Shown here piece after piece: positions 24,936-58,713 of a stretch of 64,000 nucleotides of DNA. Source of the DNA: Octopus sinensis. Lineage: Eukaryota. The stretch covers positions 35,567 through 99,566 of the forward strand of contig NW_021833224.1 of the NCBI RefSeq assembly GCF_006345805.1, written 5' to 3'. Below the pieces are notes generated by a model. It was given only the letters and a program-made list of their open reading frames with translations. It was not told where the DNA came from and did not search any database. The position numbers and the translations under genes were made by a program. Every line of letters begins with the position of its first letter. The first letter of the stretch is position 1.

Positions 24936-26298
24936 GTATGTGTTGTGCAAAATGTAAATATTTTATCGTCCGGTGATTATATATGGAATGTTTTGTTGCA
25001 GAGAATGGAACCATTTGAGATGTGCAACTGAATTGAAAGTGTCTTGCGTACGATGTGGGCTGAGTTTAGTTAGATTATCTTTTGGATTGAGAATAACGTT
25101 GACATGGGTTTTACGATCTTCTTTATATTGTTATCATACTTTTATATTTTTATCATATTTTTATCATATTCAGTTATTAGTGATATCGTCTTCAAATTCA
25201 TAGCTGATTCCTGATCATTTTAAATTCATGAAACTTGAATATTTGTAGTTTCTACCCTTCTCACCGGAAATGCTTTGGCAAAAAAATAATTGAAATATCA
25301 GAGTACAGATATCATTGTTTCATTTTTTGGCAAATTATATTTGTACAGTTTTCCTTGATGTCTTTATCTGTCATTCCGCTGTTGATTGTGGTCAGGTCGT
25401 TATTATGGATTATGTTTGATGTTTTATCACTTCATATCCGTTCGTTTCTCTCCAAATTACGATATATGTTCCATTGGACATATATTACTGTCTGGGAACA
25501 TTATTGGTCTTGGCAAAGGAACGGATCACCGGAAAGGATGTGGTCAACTCTCTCATTATGTTTTTCGTTGTATAATCTATGTTCCGCATACAGAAGTCAG
25601 TCCTAAAAAGTTCTCCAATAAGTACGTATTAGGCTACATTTCGCTGCGGATGTCTGATAAAACCGACACATGTCCGACGTTAACTCCAAACCTACGAAAA
25701 ATTAGACTTGTTCCCCAATGTTTAGCTCTACATTATTTTTAATCAATTTCAATTTCGGAATTTCTCTAAGTTGCATCTCTTGACAATGGTTCTCAATTAA
25801 CCAGATGATTGTTTTTTTGGTGTTGTTTTTTTTTTTTGCTCTTCATTATGTGTATAATTTCAATTAATTCAAATACAAAATTCACTCATTATTCCGCTCT
25901 TAACATACGCAGTACTTTCACAATCTTTTCTGAAGTGTCCAGAATGTTCTCTTCCAAGAAATACTGGTGCTTCTTATCTCGTTTGAAACAACATTTCCTT
26001 TTCTTTCTTCATCTTCACCTCCTTCGATTTTTGTTCCTCTCTCTTTATCTCACCCTCACTCCTCCTCTCCCCCTCTCTTCTGTTCCCTCTCTTTCTATCC
26101 CTCTCAAATTAATCGATCTCCCTCATTATTTCAATGGATAATTTTGTAGTGATGTAGTGGTGGTCATCGTCGTATTTATTTTCGATTTATGCATATAACA
26201 CGTCTCTTTCCTATTCATTTCATCTTTTTTCTTTGTAAATTAACGTTAAACGTGAATATGAAATATGAAATATTTTACAAAATAAATTTTCATTGCAG

Positions 26299-26334
26299 TT
26301 CTCTTCTACATCTCATTGAAATTTGGAAATGGAC
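26299..26334 (+). CDS. Gene A 36-nt micro-exon (signal peptide C-part, xLFYISLKFGNG)
   Basis: cattgcAG acceptor and C|GTGAGT donor, phase 1-1. Near-identical paralog at 48651-48686. Joins the PAN1 exon in frame (C+TT = Leu). Confidence 0.8.
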
Positions 26335-26506
26335 GTGAGTAGATTTATATCAATATATAGACCTATATGTATGAAAATTATGAAATTCAAAACACAAAAA
26401 TTTAAACTACATCATAAGTAAACAAACATAAGTTTATTTTTGAAGCGTTGAAATGTATTGTAGAAAGATATATTTTTCAACGCGTAAATACTGATAGAAC
26501 AGCATA

Positions 26507-27221
26507 TCTATATATATATAAACGACAAAATGTTTGTGTGTGTGTGTGTATCCTTTATACAAATCCACAATTTTTCAGTTAGAGGGCTCGCACTTTCTAT
26601 GGTTATTCAAACCCGTCCAAGGGTAGTTGTGAAGATCTTTTCATTTCCCCAGTAAACCCTGAAAGCCATTAAAAAGATCGATAAACCGACCCCTTATGTT
26701 TCAAGTAACAAAAGTCTTTAATACAAGGGACGTAACTCCAGCAGTTTAATCTAAAGATATAGCAAGGGAAATAACTCTTTAAAACTCTGCATTTCCCTCC
26801 CTTTGTTATGCATCACACTTCAATACTGTACCAGACCAATTTATTCAATTTAGAACCGGAACTGTCCCGGATTTCAGGATTTTCCAATTTCCTAGAGAAT
26901 TTCTAAACGTTTGCTTAAAATCTCTATATCTATAAATGGCAAAATGTCAGTTTTTTGATTGGACAGAGATAATTTTACACCTGACAGTTGGATGCGCATG
27001 CGCATTTGCAGACAGTCTGTATGACTCAGCGCATTTTTGTGTTTTGCAAAGACGTGCTATCATGTGTTTTGGCTTTCAAACGTGCACGCTTTTTTGATTT
27101 GAGAAATGCAGGGAATAATTAACGAGTTAGACCAAGTGATTGACAAGAGAACAGAATTTTCATGAAAGACCAAATATGCTTGACTAGCACTAGATGCGAC
27201 AACGCCGGGTCATAGTGCTAG
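26507..27221 (+). mobile_element. Non-autonomous Helitron
   Basis: A|TCTATATATATA 5' end; subterminal hairpin and CTAG|T 3' end; a second internal 5'-like end at ~26921. Same family at 57318-57681. Confidence 0.8.
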
Positions 27222-27283
27222 TATAGGATCAAGTTCTGTTAGAGTAGAAGCATTTGTCGGCTTTAAAAGGATTTTATCCTATA

Positions 27284-28078
27284 CTAGCTAAAGTACCCAT
27301 CTTTTGGGCGGTTTAAGTTGTTCTTGAATCAGTTCGTTAACCTTGCGGCACTGCGTGTTGTCCGAGTTGTGCGCTGGTCAAGTGACTCCGTAGCTATTGC
27401 GGCAGCAGTCACGGCAGCATTCAGCGTTAACCAAAATGCACTCTCCTCTGTAGAGTCATTTGATCGCGAAGCAGCAGTAATTTACGGGTTTTTGCTCCAC
27501 GGGCCGCAAGTTTTCTTGTTGAGTTTGGATGTGATGATTGCAAATTATTGAGTCTTGCGCTGTTGGTAGCTAATCTGGATAACCTAATTGTCCTCTGCTC
27601 CTCAGTTTCATTAACTCGACGCTGCTTTGCCCTGACCGCATCGGTTGACAATCTGTTAAGGTACCGTTTTTTTTTCACGGGACCAGTGGTGGTCAAAAAG
27701 ACCAAAAATAGAATATTTTTAAGTCTTTGATGAATAGACCAACACTTAAATGAAATTTTCCGTAATATTGTTAACGTAACGACGTATTTTCAAGTATTAA
27801 CATCATGAGCAAAACGATAATAGTGCAAAGTCAAGTGTTAAACTTAATATAGAAATAGTTTAGGAATTTTGGGTTGTGAAATATGCAAAATAATAATCTC
27901 AAGAAAACATACCTTTTATTTCAAGTTCAAAGAGTAAAAATAAATCCGAGTGAAAACAAAAATTTTACGATTTCAAAGTGAGTTGTTATTGTTGCCATCT
28001 TGTAGAACTGAACAACTTGTATACAGGAAGTCATCAATTTTTTGCATACATATGATAATTATTGTATCTTAAGATAGA
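27284..28078 (-). mobile_element. Internally deleted Helitron retaining the STPR-like N-terminal coding fragment
   Basis: Minus-strand RRVNETEEQRTIRL; 3' end GCCCAAAAGATGGGTACTTTAGCTAG|T; likely 5' end A|TCTATCTTAA at 28078. Confidence 0.7.
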
Positions 28079-28869
28079 TTCGCATCGATGCACTTGTTAA
28101 ATCGATTCATGCGATCGATAGCGCAGAAGGTAGAATCACAAAAGCATTGTACAAATGAAAGAAAATATAAGTTGTCATAAATTATGAGAACAAAAGTTTT
28201 TAAATAGAACCCAACTTGTCGGAAACCAAAGCACTGAAAAACAATGAAAATCTGAAGCAAAAAATTAAAGACTATAGCTAGAAATTAAATTTGTAAGCCC
28301 TATAACTCCAACAGACGGCCTAAATATAAGTAGCAGAGAAATTTGTTGGCTCTAGAAGGATTTTATCCTATATATATGGCTCTGTCAGCATTTACTCGTT
28401 GAAAAATATATCTTTCTACTTGTTCTGCAAAAATTTAATTTATAAGTTCAGTGTAGGAAAATATTTTCCTTCTCAAAGTAAATTAGTAGACTCAAGACGA
28501 AACTCGTATTATGACGAGTTCAATTCTTAACTTAATTTCCATTCGTTATAATTCTTTTTTTTTTTTTTTTGTCAGCTTGTATTTTGTTAGATTTGACTAA
28601 GTGCTGACATTTGGACAAACTTTACAACAGGCAACCGTTAAACATTATAGGATATAACGTGTGAATCATTTAAATATGACAATTAATTAAACAACTTGAA
28701 AAATTCATTCGCAGTCATTTTCATTAAACAGATAATATATTCCAACTGTTAAAATACCAATATTGATCCTCAAACATTTAATATTCTATTTCTTTATATT
28801 ATCTATTTTGACAATCTTTTACTTTCGTCTTCGTATTTTGGTTGTTTAATTTGCCTGGCTTTGTTACAG

Positions 28870-57317: not shown

Positions 57318-57681
57318 TCCCTCTATATATAAACGGCAAAATGTCTGTATGTGTACTCTTTATACAAATCCACAATTTTTCAGTAAGAGGGCTCGCACTT
57401 TCTATGGCCATTCAAAACCGTCCAAGGGTGGTCGTGCAGATCTTTAAATTTCCCCAGTCACCCCGCAAAGCCATTAAAAAATCAATAGAAGTGACATTTT
57501 GGGGAATTTTCTATCCAAAACCCAATCAAAATGCCCGAAACTTGATACGCCAATTAAATGCCAGCTAGCTGTATGTGATTGGTCGGAGATTTGGACAGTA
57601 CTCGCGTGTATGTTTGCACGCACGCAGCTGTATATGCATGCACTAGCACTATGACCCGATGTTGCCGGGTTGTAGTGTTAG
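57318..57681 (+). mobile_element. Non-autonomous Helitron (family of 26507-27221)
   Basis: A|TCCCTCTATATAT 5' end; shared body tatacaaatccacaatttttcag; 3' hairpin then TTAG|T (CTAG variant). Confidence 0.78.
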
Positions 57682-57694
57682 TTATTATTATTTT

Positions 57695-57930
57695 TTTTTT
57701 TTCTTCTTTCAAATTTGCTTCCATTTCTTGCCGAGTGTCTTCCCGACTCCTAGGGCAAAGAAACTCATAGTATACATTGGTAGGCCATTAAACCAAACTC
57801 AATAGTTCGTTCATTTGTTTTGTTTTTTTTAAGTTAAATTAAAATACATGAGCAGCAACAGTTCTCACATCGACAATGCTCTTCTCAATACGTGTGATTT
57901 AACTGGTCTTAACACGAACCGCGCCATTTC
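57695..57930 (-). mobile_element. REL-LINE-derived 3' end fragment
   Basis: Minus-strand ...SHVLRRALSM* followed by a UTR; flanked by ATT repeats. Confidence 0.55.
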
Positions 57931-58159
57931 TATTATTATTATTATTATTATTATTTTTATTATTATTATTATTATTATTATTATTATTATTATTATCATT
58001 ATCATTATTATTATTATTATTATTATGATTATTATTATTATTATTATTATTATTATATTATTATTATTATTATTATTATTATTATTATTATTATCATCAT
58101 TATTATTATTATTACATCTTTACCCAATACTTCTATCAAATTATTATTCTCATTAAAAA

Positions 58160-58377
58160 TAGCTGCGAGCTGGCATAATCGTTAGCACAACGTGCAAAAG
58201 AAATGGTTAGCACCATTTCATCTGTTTTTACATTTTCAGTTCAAATTTCGCCGAGGGCCATTTCGCCCTTTATCCTTTTAGGGTCGATAAAGTACGTGCC
58301 AGTTGAGTACTGACGGCGATATCATCCTCTTAGTCCCTCCCACAAATTTTCAAGCTTTGTATCTCCAGCAGAAAGTA
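58160..58377 (+). mobile_element. tRNA-derived SINE (family of 5374-5603), diverged
   Basis: gcgagctggcataatcgttagc...agttcaaatttcgccgagg...gggtcgataaa. Confidence 0.75.
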
Positions 58378-58482
58378 TAATTTCTCATTAATCTACACAA
58401 TAAAACACTTCACCATAAAAGCACCCCATCACAGTTATGAAAACCGAAAAAAAACGTTCATTTATCTGTTTTATTCATTCAG

Positions 58483-58713
58483 GAAAATGTCCCGTGGATT
58501 TCGTTTACAACGGTTATCTTCCTTCTAACAATGATTTGGGTATCACTTATACTCAGAATTATACACAGTGTTTCAAAAAATGTGAAGCGGAACCAAAATG
58601 TCAGTCATCCGAATACTCCTTGGACACAACAGAATGCCGAACGTCAGCTGCGAATCATACTACCATGAATTTGAAGTTCTGGGGAAGTGAACTTTACGCT
58701 GATATAGACAAAA
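58483..58713 (+). CDS. Gene B exon encoding PAN/apple domain 2 (gene probably continues beyond the window)
   Basis: ttttattcattcAG acceptor and A|GTAAGT donor, 231 nt, phase 1-1. Encodes GKCPVDF...NYTQCFKKCEAEPKCQSSEY...CRTS. Confidence 0.88.

What the first reader, a model, noticed from the sequence alone, without database searches (positions are those of the whole stretch)
25517..58713. Mosaic paralogy: PAN1 block recently shared, PAN2 exon deeply diverged
Hand counts: PAN1 exons differ at 23 of 86 aa (~73% identity, ~36 of 258 nt) and their flanking introns align closely. PAN2 exons share only ~31 of 77 aa (~40%), with weak flanking similarity (31585-31640 vs 58378-58430). The candidate first exons are unrelated. 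One duplication event should give uniform neutral divergence. Inferred: an old duplication followed by gene conversion or unequal crossover that replaced the micro-exon + PAN1 cassette, i.e. domain-level shuffling between family members. Very strong selection on PAN2 alone is the alternative.
Basis: partly seen in the sequence, partly recalled or inferred. Interest (0 to 1): 0.72.

Follow-up and report, generated by a model that had tools for sequence, protein, structure and literature searches.

The report
Mosaic octopus PAN-domain gene paralogs
Two neighbouring octopus genes for secreted PAN/Apple-domain proteins are alike at both ends but very different in their middle exon, a pattern shared by the whole family of about 20 genes and likely made by gene conversion around an old, fast-evolving domain; the case is clear, but this kind of gene-family evolution is well known.

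Summary
Gene A (window 26.3-39.2 kb) and gene B (47.0 kb to past the window end) share a 5' block (25515-29205 vs 47810-49566, 81-88% nt). Their PAN2 exons are 40% aa and 57-62% nt identical, and the surrounding introns do not align. Synonymous divergence differs about 8-fold (PAN1 dS 0.16, PAN2 dS 1.37; Fisher p=1e-6).

- There was no single A-B swap of a PAN1 cassette. A's PAN1 is closest to genes 9 Mb away, and B's is closest to gene D.
- A and B become similar again in a 3' block (81% over 1.9 kb); B's copy lies beyond the window.
- All 17 complete paralogs in this Octopus genome show the same layout: two ~1.3 kb islands at 80-96% identity flank a central PAN2 segment that falls into old lineages.
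- Each of the five blocks tested rejects the tree of every other block (AU p<=0.002).
- Shared-tract tests are significant for 13 of 136 pairs, but not for A-B.
- PAN2 evolves with pN/pS about 2 in young pairs.

Best reading: family-wide partial concerted evolution, plus diversifying selection on PAN2. This is a known kind of process in an undescribed, octopod-restricted family.

The parts
25515..29205 (+). Gene A 5' block: end of intron 1, micro-exon, intron 2, PAN1 exon and 78 nt of the next intron. Similar to gene B 47810-49566.
   Evidence: blastn 81-88%. The core 28748-29205 is 87-91% identical to all 28 non-self family loci compared.
26299..26334 (+). Gene A micro-exon (exon 2), coding the second half of the signal peptide (FLFYISLKFGNG).
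   Evidence: Homology to B's RNA-supported micro-exon. The splice-site letters are conserved in 17 of 17 genes.
26406..28427 (+). A-specific 2 kb insertion in the intron between the micro-exon and PAN1.
   Evidence: Gap in every A-vs-paralog alignment. One ORF has a weak sub-threshold STPR match.
28870..29127 (+). Gene A PAN1 exon (258 nt, phase 1-1).
   Evidence: Pfam PAN_1 25.2 bits. Alignment and splice sites.
29206..38035 (+). Gene A central variable segment (introns plus the PAN2 exon). It does not align with B, but aligns at 77-91% with 'type II' paralogs at C17 21.7-22.0 Mb.
31702..31932 (+). Gene A PAN2 exon (231 nt, phase 1-1), type II lineage.
   Evidence: Pfam PAN_1 29.7 bits. 40% aa identity to B and 48-56% to the five type II genes compared.
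38036..39965 (+). Gene A 3' block (exon 5, intron, exon 6, 3' flank). 81% identical to B's 3' block, which lies beyond the window.
   Evidence: The family-wide island is about 38100-39400.
38282..38377 (+). Gene A exon 5 (ELWNDF...NFVN), first half of a third PAN-like domain.
   Evidence: tblastn and splice sites
39003..39198 (+). Gene A exon 6 (last coding exon). In the window it carries a 1-nt deletion near 39075 that breaks the frame. The duplicate copy on C17 is intact.
47000..47284 (+). Gene B exon 1 (5' UTR plus MLQRNYLQII from 47254). Its 5' end was not determined.
   Evidence: An RNA contig of run X1 covers 47000-47284 and joins 47284 to 48651, GT..AG. NCBI model P0012.
47810..49566 (+). 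Gene B 5' block. The family-wide island of 85-96% mean pairwise identity is about 48251-49562.
48651..48686 (+). Gene B micro-exon (exon 2).
   Evidence: RNA joint 47284>48651. P0012.
49246..49503 (+). Gene B PAN1 exon.
   Evidence: Pfam 22.4 bits. RNA joint 49502/3>58482/3 in contigs of runs X1, X3 and X5.
49567..64000 (+). Gene B central variable segment (it continues about 3 kb past the window end). Holds a LINE, microsatellites and the PAN2 exon.
50962..53625 (+). Near-intact LINE (endonuclease + reverse transcriptase ORFs) inside B's PAN1-PAN2 intron.
   Evidence: Pfam Exo_endo_phos_2 and RVT_1
58483..58713 (+). Gene B PAN2 exon (231 nt), type I lineage.
   Evidence: Pfam 29.9 bits. RNA joint. 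94% nt identity to the partial copy G at C17 14.436 Mb.

Best explanation
The two window genes belong to an octopod-restricted family of about 20 tandem genes for secreted proteins with three PAN/Apple-like domains, in which two ~1.3 kb islands (micro-exon + PAN1, and the last two exons) are 80-96% identical among all paralogs while the PAN2 exon and its long introns fall into old, mutually unalignable lineages; this mosaic is likely the product of repeated interlocus gene conversion or unequal crossing-over that keeps homogenising the ends, with PAN2 likely kept apart by diversifying selection.

Shown directly:
- the gene structure;
- the block boundaries;
- the unequal dS;
- the conflicting block trees;
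- the significant shared tracts in some pairs;
- pN/pS>1 in PAN2 of young duplicates.

Inferred:
- Conversion, rather than cassette shuffling, is the process.
- Conversion stops at PAN2 because that segment is too diverged to pair, and because selection favours different PAN2 variants.
- PAN2 is the ligand-specificity module of a recognition protein.

Gene A is a 'type II' member. Its whole body is 80-91% like the cluster at 21.7-22.0 Mb, but it sits beside 'type I' gene B. The A-B contrast is therefore the family's deep type I/type II split, seen through homogenised ends.
For: (1) Mosaic in neutral sites. A-B dS is 0.164 for PAN1, 1.37 for PAN2 and 0.34 for exon 5 (Fisher on synonymous counts p=1.2e-6). 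The 8.8 kb (A) and 17.5 kb (B) central segments share no colinear similarity except the PAN2 exon, while the 5' and 3' blocks are 77-82% and 81% identical.

(2) The pattern is family-wide.
- 17 complete genes were annotated.
- Median pS over 136 pairs is 0.108 for PAN1, 0.463 for PAN2 and 0.158 for exon 5. For exon 6 it is 0.169 over 105 pairs.
- aa identity is 61-96% for PAN1 (median 78%) and 36-94% for PAN2 (median 51%).
- The islands have sharp edges: identity drops from 85-96% to about 60-67% outside B 48251-49562 and outside A ~38100-39400.
- Introns inside the islands are as conserved as the exons, and PAN1 has pN about equal to pS. The islands therefore look young rather than constrained.

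(3) Conflicting genealogies. Each of five blocks rejects the ML tree of each other block (p-AU <=0.002, delta lnL 57-1014). Adjacent genes C and D are 98% identical in PAN1 (dS 0.04) but 74% in PAN2 (dS 0.32). K9 and K12 carry a type I PAN2 but sit inside the local-cluster clade for PAN1 (95/95).

(4) Shared tracts. 13 of 136 pairs pass Bonferroni in a Sawyer-type runs test on the 5' block (1196 ungapped columns, 557 polymorphic, 8000 permutations).

(5) Cross-species data. The two annotated O. bimaculoides members are 88% identical in PAN1 but 43% in PAN2. Each has a 77% PAN2 match in this genome, whose PAN1 is only 72-76% like it. PAN2 data reject joining the two O. bimaculoides proteins (p-AU 8e-5).

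(6) Selection on PAN2.
- Pooled over six young sister pairs there are 78.8 nonsynonymous and 9.2 synonymous differences, giving pN/pS 2.11 (p=0.0185). Exon 6 gives 0.41 (p=0.002).
- Column entropy is 1.30 bits for PAN2, against 0.53, 0.47 and 0.36 for the other exons.
- In pair C-H the exon differs at 8.7% of sites and the 500 nt downstream at 1.5%.
Against: - For A and B themselves the trees do not conflict in topology. PAN2 data do not reject a clade of A plus all cluster-3 genes (p-AU 0.37; the group was named after seeing the trees).
- The A-B shared-tract test is not significant after correction (p=0.0024 x 136 pairs).
- The cross-species signal rests on only two O. bimaculoides proteins. 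PAN1 data do not reject holding the PAN2-orthologue pairs together (p-AU 0.21 and 0.24).
- dS of PAN2 between types is saturated and comes from only about 46 synonymous sites.
- Central introns are full of transposons and microsatellites. Part of their unalignability is turnover, not age.
- Exon-versus-flank acceleration of PAN2 is absent in pairs K3-K5 and K1-K6. The 500 nt upstream flanks align poorly.
- The young pairs for the pN/pS test were chosen from the PAN2 tree.
- Conversion of the ends cannot be told from crossover-based reassortment of central segments with these data.
- The function of the proteins is untested.
Confidence: 0.68

Rival explanations
1. Reassortment rather than conversion. 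The family's frame (5' and 3' ends) is young. Old PAN2-bearing central segments were moved between genes by unequal crossing-over in the long introns or by partial duplication, that is, domain-level shuffling of a cassette.
For: - The central segment can duplicate on its own. About 8 kb of B's central region (57251-66429 in stitched coordinates, 91-95%) exists as partial copy G at C17 14.435-14.443 Mb, without the 5' or 3' block.
- K9 and K12 combine a cluster-3 PAN1 with a type I PAN2.
- The block trees conflict.
Against: - There are at least six mutually unalignable central lineages but only one shallow lineage of ends. That fits homogenisation of the ends more simply than many independent imports.
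- Short shared tracts inside the 5' block are what conversion predicts.
- No donor PAN2 was found outside the family: other genomic hits are at most 38% identical.
Confidence: 0.17
2. One reading: one old duplication of A and B, followed by a single conversion or unequal crossover between these two genes that replaced the micro-exon + PAN1 cassette.
For: A and B are adjacent, and their 5' blocks are 81-88% identical while PAN2 is 40% aa. In the micro-exon block and the exon-6 block, A and B are among each other's closest relatives (90%).
Against: - A's PAN1 core is closer to 10 cluster-3 genes and to D than to B, and B's is closest to D.
- All 136 pairs show 85-98% identity in this core.
- The A-B tract test is not significant.
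- The 3' block is shared too.
- A's whole body is 80-91% like cluster-3 genes, so A and B are not products of one local duplication.
Confidence: 0.05
3. Selection only. All parts of A and B are equally old, PAN2 has diverged through very strong positive selection, and the ends are held by purifying selection.
For: pN/pS is about 2 in PAN2 of young pairs. Exon 6 has pN/pS 0.41. PAN2 entropy is 2.5-3.6 times that of the other exons.
Against: - Synonymous sites differ 8-fold between PAN1 and PAN2.
- Introns around PAN2 do not align between types, while introns inside the islands are 85-96% identical.
- PAN1 itself has pN about equal to pS: 71 of 136 pairs have pN>pS. It is therefore not conserved by constraint.
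Confidence: 0.05
4. Assembly artefact: the tandem pair or the mosaic comes from collapsed or duplicated haplotigs.
For: - The window's contig C9695 is a redundant copy of C17 12.85-12.91 Mb (99.84-99.88% identical). In a 2.5 kb comparison the only differences are 4 gaps and no mismatches.
- Many family hits are such duplicates.
Against: - A and B occur with the same order and spacing on C17.
- B's splice joints are seen in RNA contigs of three runs.
- NCBI models exist for B and other members.
Confidence: 0.02

Closest known systems
Partial concerted evolution of tandem paralogs by interlocus gene conversion, with 'islands of divergence' kept by selection
   Same: - Stretches of homogeneity in which paralogs resemble each other more than orthologs do.
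- Mosaic divergence along tandem copies.
- A diverged island that coincides with the part under selection.

For these three papers I saw only the search listing, that is the title and the start of the abstract:
- PMC2720389 (mammalian gene pairs);
- bioRxiv 10.1101/2025.10.29.685298 (HMA4 tandem paralogues, 'mosaic divergence');
[quoted passage not shown]
   Different: - Here about 20 genes in several clusters up to 9 Mb apart, and on another scaffold, share the same two islands.
- The diverged island is a whole domain exon plus 9-17 kb of intron.
- There are at least six old lineages of the island.
- The family is an undescribed octopod one.
PAN/Apple domain proteins (Pfam PF00024 PAN_1)
   Same: PAN1 and PAN2 exons each encode one PAN_1 domain above the Pfam threshold, with conserved cysteines. 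Each domain is coded by one symmetric phase 1-1 exon.
   Different: - Short secreted proteins of about 280 aa: a signal peptide, two PAN domains and a third PAN-like unit split over two exons.
- The closest relatives in 1.84 billion representatives are all octopod (Octopus spp., Argonauta hians at 36%).
- No ligand or function is known.
Gene families with a conserved signal/frame and a hypervariable mature or binding domain (recalled from memory, not checked here: cone-snail toxin genes, snake venom PLA2 'accelerated evolution', MHC peptide-binding exons with homogenised introns)
   Same: A conserved leader and frame, one fast-evolving exon with pN/pS above 1, and old lineages of the variable part.
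   Different: - Here the introns next to the variable exon are diverged too. In the PLA2 case, as I recall it, the introns are conserved.
- No venom, immune or other role has been shown.
- This resemblance is recalled, not tested.

Membership tests
PAN/Apple domain (Pfam PF00024) | Profile match above the curated gathering score | tested here: met
   PAN1 A 25.2, PAN1 B 22.4, PAN2 A 29.7 and PAN2 B 29.9 bits, against a cut-off of 21.4.
PAN/Apple domain (Pfam PF00024) | Conserved core cysteines | tested here: met
   Four cysteines are invariant or nearly invariant in PAN1 and five in PAN2 across 10 proteins and 17 genes. Which cysteines pair with which was not determined.
PAN/Apple domain (Pfam PF00024) | PAN fold (helix packed on a beta sheet) | tested here: inconclusive
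   The AlphaFold2 model of P0009 has mean pLDDT 42.5. Only residues ~113-185 (PAN2) reach 73-84, with strands and one helix. No fold search was run on it.
Concerted evolution by interlocus gene conversion | Segments of one gene pair differ significantly in neutral divergence | tested here: met
   A-B pS is 0.147 (PAN1) against 0.630 (PAN2), Fisher p=1.2e-6. Introns align in the end blocks only.
Concerted evolution by interlocus gene conversion | Different segments support significantly different trees | tested here: met
   All 20 cross-tests of five blocks reject (p-AU <=0.002). For the placement of A and B alone the topologies agree.
Concerted evolution by interlocus gene conversion | Significant shared tracts (GENECONV/Sawyer-type test) | tested here: met
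   13 of 136 pairs are significant after Bonferroni in the 5' block. A-B gives p=0.0024, not significant. This was my own implementation; GENECONV and RDP themselves were not available.
Concerted evolution by interlocus gene conversion | Paralogs within a species more alike than orthologs between species | tested here: inconclusive
   The two O. bimaculoides proteins are 88% identical in PAN1, against 72-76% to their PAN2-orthologues. The AU test on 85 aa does not reject orthologue pairing (p 0.21 and 0.24). Only two proteins of the second species were available.
Diversifying (positive) selection on PAN2 | Nonsynonymous rate above synonymous rate | tested here: met
   Pooled pN/pS is 2.11 over six young pairs, p=0.0185. 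Across all 136 pairs only 35 have pN>pS, because pS is saturated. Codon site models were not run.

The most novel reading that the evidence does not exclude
The family is an octopod-specific, germline-diversified recognition repertoire. Secreted three-PAN proteins would have a PAN2 domain that acts as a specificity module, held as ancient trans-species lineages by diversifying or balancing selection, while gene conversion keeps the rest of the protein uniform. That would make it an invertebrate analogue of variable-domain immune or gamete-recognition families, built on the PAN/Apple fold.
Probability: 0.15. Interest if true: 0.65.

Novelty: new member of a known kind. Interest (0 to 1): 0.4.

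Why it matters
- It gives a clean, quantifiable example of partial concerted evolution in a cephalopod genome: two sharply bounded homogenised islands around a hypervariable domain exon.
- It flags a gene family that turned up in no literature search here. No paper held 'octopus' together with 'apple domain' or 'PAN domain', and none held any of six LOC identifiers.
- It warns annotators. The only O. vulgaris model found for this locus (P0003) fuses genes A and B and skips A's PAN2. 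Family trees built from whole proteins would also be misleading.
- If PAN2 proves to be a binding module under an arms race, the family would be a candidate recognition system in octopods.

Tried and rejected
- Structure. The AlphaFold2 model of the full-length family member P0009, built with a 10-sequence alignment, was poor (mean pLDDT 42.5). I ran no fold search and draw no structural conclusion.
Whether A is transcribed, or whether its PAN2 is skipped as in model P0003, stays open.
- Tissue of expression. The runs are coded and carry no tissue label.
- Frameshift in A's last exon as a sign of a pseudogene: rejected. The C17 copy is intact, and the two copies differ only by indels.
- Searches for A's first exon found none, using a peptide pattern, relaxed blastn with five paralog exon-1 regions and a whole-genome DNA search (40 of 53 candidates scored).
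- Microsatellites at the block edges as conversion boundaries: about 25 arrays in 40 kb (30 TRF rows, some overlapping) make proximity uninformative.
- The 500 nt upstream flanks of PAN2 gave 14-48% 'differences' from poor alignment of low-complexity sequence and were not used.
- A post-hoc AU test of K9/K12 incongruence was one-sided. PAN1 data reject the type I set (p 0.0098), but PAN2 data accept A plus all K genes (p 0.37).
- The earlier-findings look-up returned nothing.
- Partial genes G, K2 and F were left out of the 17-gene tests. A, K2 and K11 were left out of the exon-6 codon set (frameshift, stop, partial).

Full report
WHAT IS THERE

The window is a redundant copy (contig C9695:35567-99566) of C17 12.85-12.91 Mb in a 2.7 Gb octopus assembly. 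Protein matches name Octopus sinensis, O. vulgaris and O. bimaculoides.

It holds two tandem genes of one family. Annotated family members (for example P0009, 282 aa) and tblastn give a six-exon structure:
- exon 1: 5' UTR plus MLQRNYLQII;
- exon 2: a 36-nt micro-exon that completes the signal peptide;
- exon 3: PAN1, 258 nt, phase 1-1;
- exon 4: PAN2, 231 nt, phase 1-1;
- exons 5 and 6: together a third cysteine-rich PAN-like unit.

All four PAN exons in the window pass the Pfam PAN_1 threshold.

For gene B, RNA contigs support two splice joints. The joint 47284>48651 is seen in run X1. The joint 49502/3>58482/3 is seen in runs X1, X3 and X5. The NCBI partial model P0012 supports the same structure. 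B's exons 5 and 6 lie about 3.3-4.3 kb past the window end and were read from the C17 copy.

Gene A has intact exons 2-6. The 1-nt deletion that breaks exon 6 in the window is absent from the C17 copy, and over the 2.5 kb compared the two copies differ only by indels. A lacks the family's exon 1: none was found in 26 kb upstream or elsewhere on its contigs. That upstream stretch is filled with LINE and Helitron fragments.

CHECK OF THE OBSERVATION

PAN1 is 73% aa and 86% nt identical. PAN2 is 40% aa and 57-62% nt identical.

The 5' block 25515-29205 aligns colinearly with 47810-49566 at 81-88%, interrupted by a 2 kb A-specific insertion. Beyond it only transposons, microsatellites and the PAN2 exon match.

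By Nei-Gojobori, A-B dS is 0.164 for PAN1 and 1.37 for PAN2 (7.5 of 51 against 28.8 of 45.7 synonymous differences; Fisher p=1.2e-6). dN is 0.155 and 0.528.

- A and B become similar again in a 3' block: A 38036-39965 is 81% identical over 1989 columns to B's exon 5-6 region.
- The 'unrelated first exons' reflect the absence of exon 1 in A.

THE FAMILY CONTEXT CHANGES THE READING

The genome holds 46 PAN1-exon matches and 46-49 PAN2 matches. Many are duplicate contigs.

I fetched 610 kb in 10-kb tiles, plus two smaller stretches, and annotated 17 complete genes:
- A and B in the window;
- C and D at C17 12.96-13.01 Mb;
- H at C17 14.48 Mb;
- E on C29;
- K1 and K3-K12 at C17 21.66-22.06 Mb.

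There are also partial copies G, K2 and F.

Every gene shows the same layout. In the multiple alignments, mean pairwise identity is 85-96% from B 48251 to 49562. That stretch covers about 400 nt of intron, the micro-exon, a ~560 nt intron, PAN1 and about 60 nt beyond. Identity drops to 60-67% on both sides. A second island, 79-92%, spans about A 38100-39400: exon 5, its intron, exon 6 and about 200 nt of 3' flank. A third small island of about 200 nt at roughly 87% surrounds exon 1.

Between the islands the PAN2 exon and its introns fall into lineages:
- 'Type II' (A, K1-K8, K10, K11) members are alignable with each other at 77-91% over most of the gene.
- 'Type I' splits into B/G, C/H, D, E and K9/K12. 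Their central introns do not align with type II, and hardly align with each other.

Gene A is thus an ordinary type II gene sitting next to a type I gene. Its PAN1 core is closest to K10 (92%) and B's is closest to D (91%). A-B at 89% is just the family level (136 pairs: 85-98%, median 90%).

WHY CONVERSION OR RECOMBINATION, AND NOT SELECTION ALONE

1. Inside the islands the introns are as conserved as the exons. PAN1 has pN about equal to pS (median 0.113 and 0.108; 71 of 136 pairs have pN>pS). The islands therefore look young rather than constrained.

2. Median pS is 0.108 for PAN1, 0.463 for PAN2, 0.158 for exon 5 and 0.169 for exon 6.

3. Each of five blocks (micro-exon block, PAN1 core, PAN2, exon-5 block, exon-6 block) rejects the ML tree of each other block (p-AU <=0.002, delta lnL 57-1014).

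4. Individual contrasts are telling. Neighbours C and D are 98% identical in PAN1 (dS 0.04) but 74% in PAN2 (dS 0.32) and 79% in exon 5. C and H, 1.5 Mb apart, are 91-98% identical in all four exons compared, as expected of a whole-gene duplicate.

5. A Sawyer-type runs test on the 5' block finds tracts significant after Bonferroni correction in 13 of 136 pairs, C-D among them.

6. Across species, the two annotated O. bimaculoides members are 88% identical in PAN1 and 43% in PAN2. Each has a 77% PAN2 counterpart here (E and P0004), whose PAN1 is only 72-76% like it. PAN2 data reject uniting the two O. bimaculoides proteins (p-AU 8e-5) and pair P0008 with P0004 at 100/99 support.

RESULTS THAT CUT THE OTHER WAY

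- For A and B alone the two trees agree in topology.
- The A-B tract test is not significant after correction.
- PAN1 data do not reject orthologue pairing across species (p 0.21 and 0.24), and only two proteins of the second species exist.
- PAN2 dS between types is saturated and based on about 46 sites.
- Transposon turnover contributes to intron unalignability.
- Homogenisation of the ends cannot be separated from reassortment of central segments. A central segment can duplicate alone: partial copy G is about 8 kb at 91-95% identity to B, without either end block.

SELECTION ON PAN2 IS ALSO PRESENT

Pooled over six independent young sister pairs, PAN2 has 78.8 nonsynonymous and 9.2 synonymous differences (pN/pS 2.11, p=0.0185). 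PAN1 gives 0.76 (not significant), exon 5 gives 1.07 and exon 6 gives 0.41 (p=0.002). The pairs were chosen from the PAN2 tree. That biases depth but not the ratio.

PAN2 columns average 1.30 bits of entropy, with 31 of 79 columns showing five or more residue types. The other exons average 0.53, 0.47 and 0.36 bits.

In C-H the exon differs at 8.7% of sites and the downstream intron at 1.5%. K3-K5 and K1-K6 show no such excess.

HOW IT MOST LIKELY WORKS

The steps in this section are inferred.
- Old duplications produced several PAN2 lineages before the O. sinensis / O. bimaculoides split.
- Later whole-gene duplications expanded them in clusters.
- Interlocus gene conversion, with tracts of about 1 kb, keeps homogenising the exon-rich ends. 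It acts most strongly among neighbours but also reaches across clusters.
- The PAN2 segment no longer converts. It is too diverged to pair, it is embedded in 9-17 kb of unrelated intron, and variants are favoured by selection.
- The proteins are secreted and PAN2 is their variable face. A recognition or binding role is plausible but untested.

COMPARISON WITH WHAT IS KNOWN

Partial concerted evolution with selected islands of divergence is well described. The three papers cited under Closest known systems come, and I saw only their listing. So this is a new member of a known kind.

The family itself was found in no paper by my searches. Supplements were not searched. Its closest relatives among 1.84 billion representatives are all octopod.

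VERDICT

Interest is moderate.

Noticed in passing
window 39070-39080 (exon 6 of gene A); L091: The window copy has a 1-nt deletion (ATAA-CGAGG) that frameshifts gene A's last exon. The C17 copy of the same locus is intact. Over 2.5 kb the two copies differ by 4 gaps and 0 mismatches. This looks like an assembly indel error or a null allele in a redundant contig.
   Followed up: yes
window 28890-29126, 38282-39120, 49248-49301, 58483-58713: The O. vulgaris database protein P0003 (298 aa) is a chimeric model. It joins gene A's PAN1, exon 5 and part of exon 6 to part of gene B's PAN1, PAN2 and last exon. It skips A's PAN2 and both signal peptides.
   Followed up: partly
window 29128-29205 and 49504-49566: The first ~80 nt of the intron after PAN1 are 92-99% identical in all 17 pairs compared (94% for A-B). 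That is higher than the exon next to them, which has windows down to 81-82%. It could be a splicing or regulatory element, or a conversion hot spot. Gene A has a 15-nt insertion inside it.
   Followed up: partly
C17 14435389-14443154 (locus tiles L040-L041): Partial copy 'G' of gene B's central segment only: the end of the PAN1-PAN2 intron, the PAN2 exon (94% nt) and most of the next intron, about 8 kb at 91-95%. It lacks the 5' and 3' blocks and lies 1.5 Mb from B.
   Followed up: partly
window 50962-53625: A near-intact LINE (endonuclease + reverse transcriptase; ORFs of 580 and 306 aa separated by one stop) sits in gene B's PAN1-PAN2 intron. RNA contigs cover it at very high summed depth, presumably from many genomic copies.
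   Followed up: partly
window 14718-18082: Helitron remnants (Helitron_like_N at E 4e-26; a weak PIF1 helicase match) lie upstream of gene A, among LINE fragments at 700-5500 and 19600-23000. This is where gene A's first exon would be expected.
   Followed up: partly
window 39678-39752: This stretch matches the alternative C-terminal end of O. sinensis model P0005 (72% over 25 aa, RRNDESTIEKFSEEYGKQFTRPIVR). It lies about 500 nt downstream of gene A's stop and may be an alternative terminal exon of the family.
   Followed up: no
window 48830>55224: RNA contigs of runs X3 and X5 show a high-depth joint with non-canonical GT..AT ends that skips 6393 nt inside gene B. It is probably a repeat-derived or chimeric contig, not a splice.
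   Followed up: no
window 61141-61542 (- strand): An ORF with a weak GIY-YIG match (E 0.0013, below the Pfam cut-off) in gene B's PAN2-exon 5 intron. It may be a Penelope-like element remnant.
   Followed up: no
C29 415000-437000 (L049, L050, L026): Family member 'F' has PAN1, exon 5 and exon 6, but no PAN2 exon was detected between them. This is either a natural PAN2-less member or an assembly gap.
   Followed up: no
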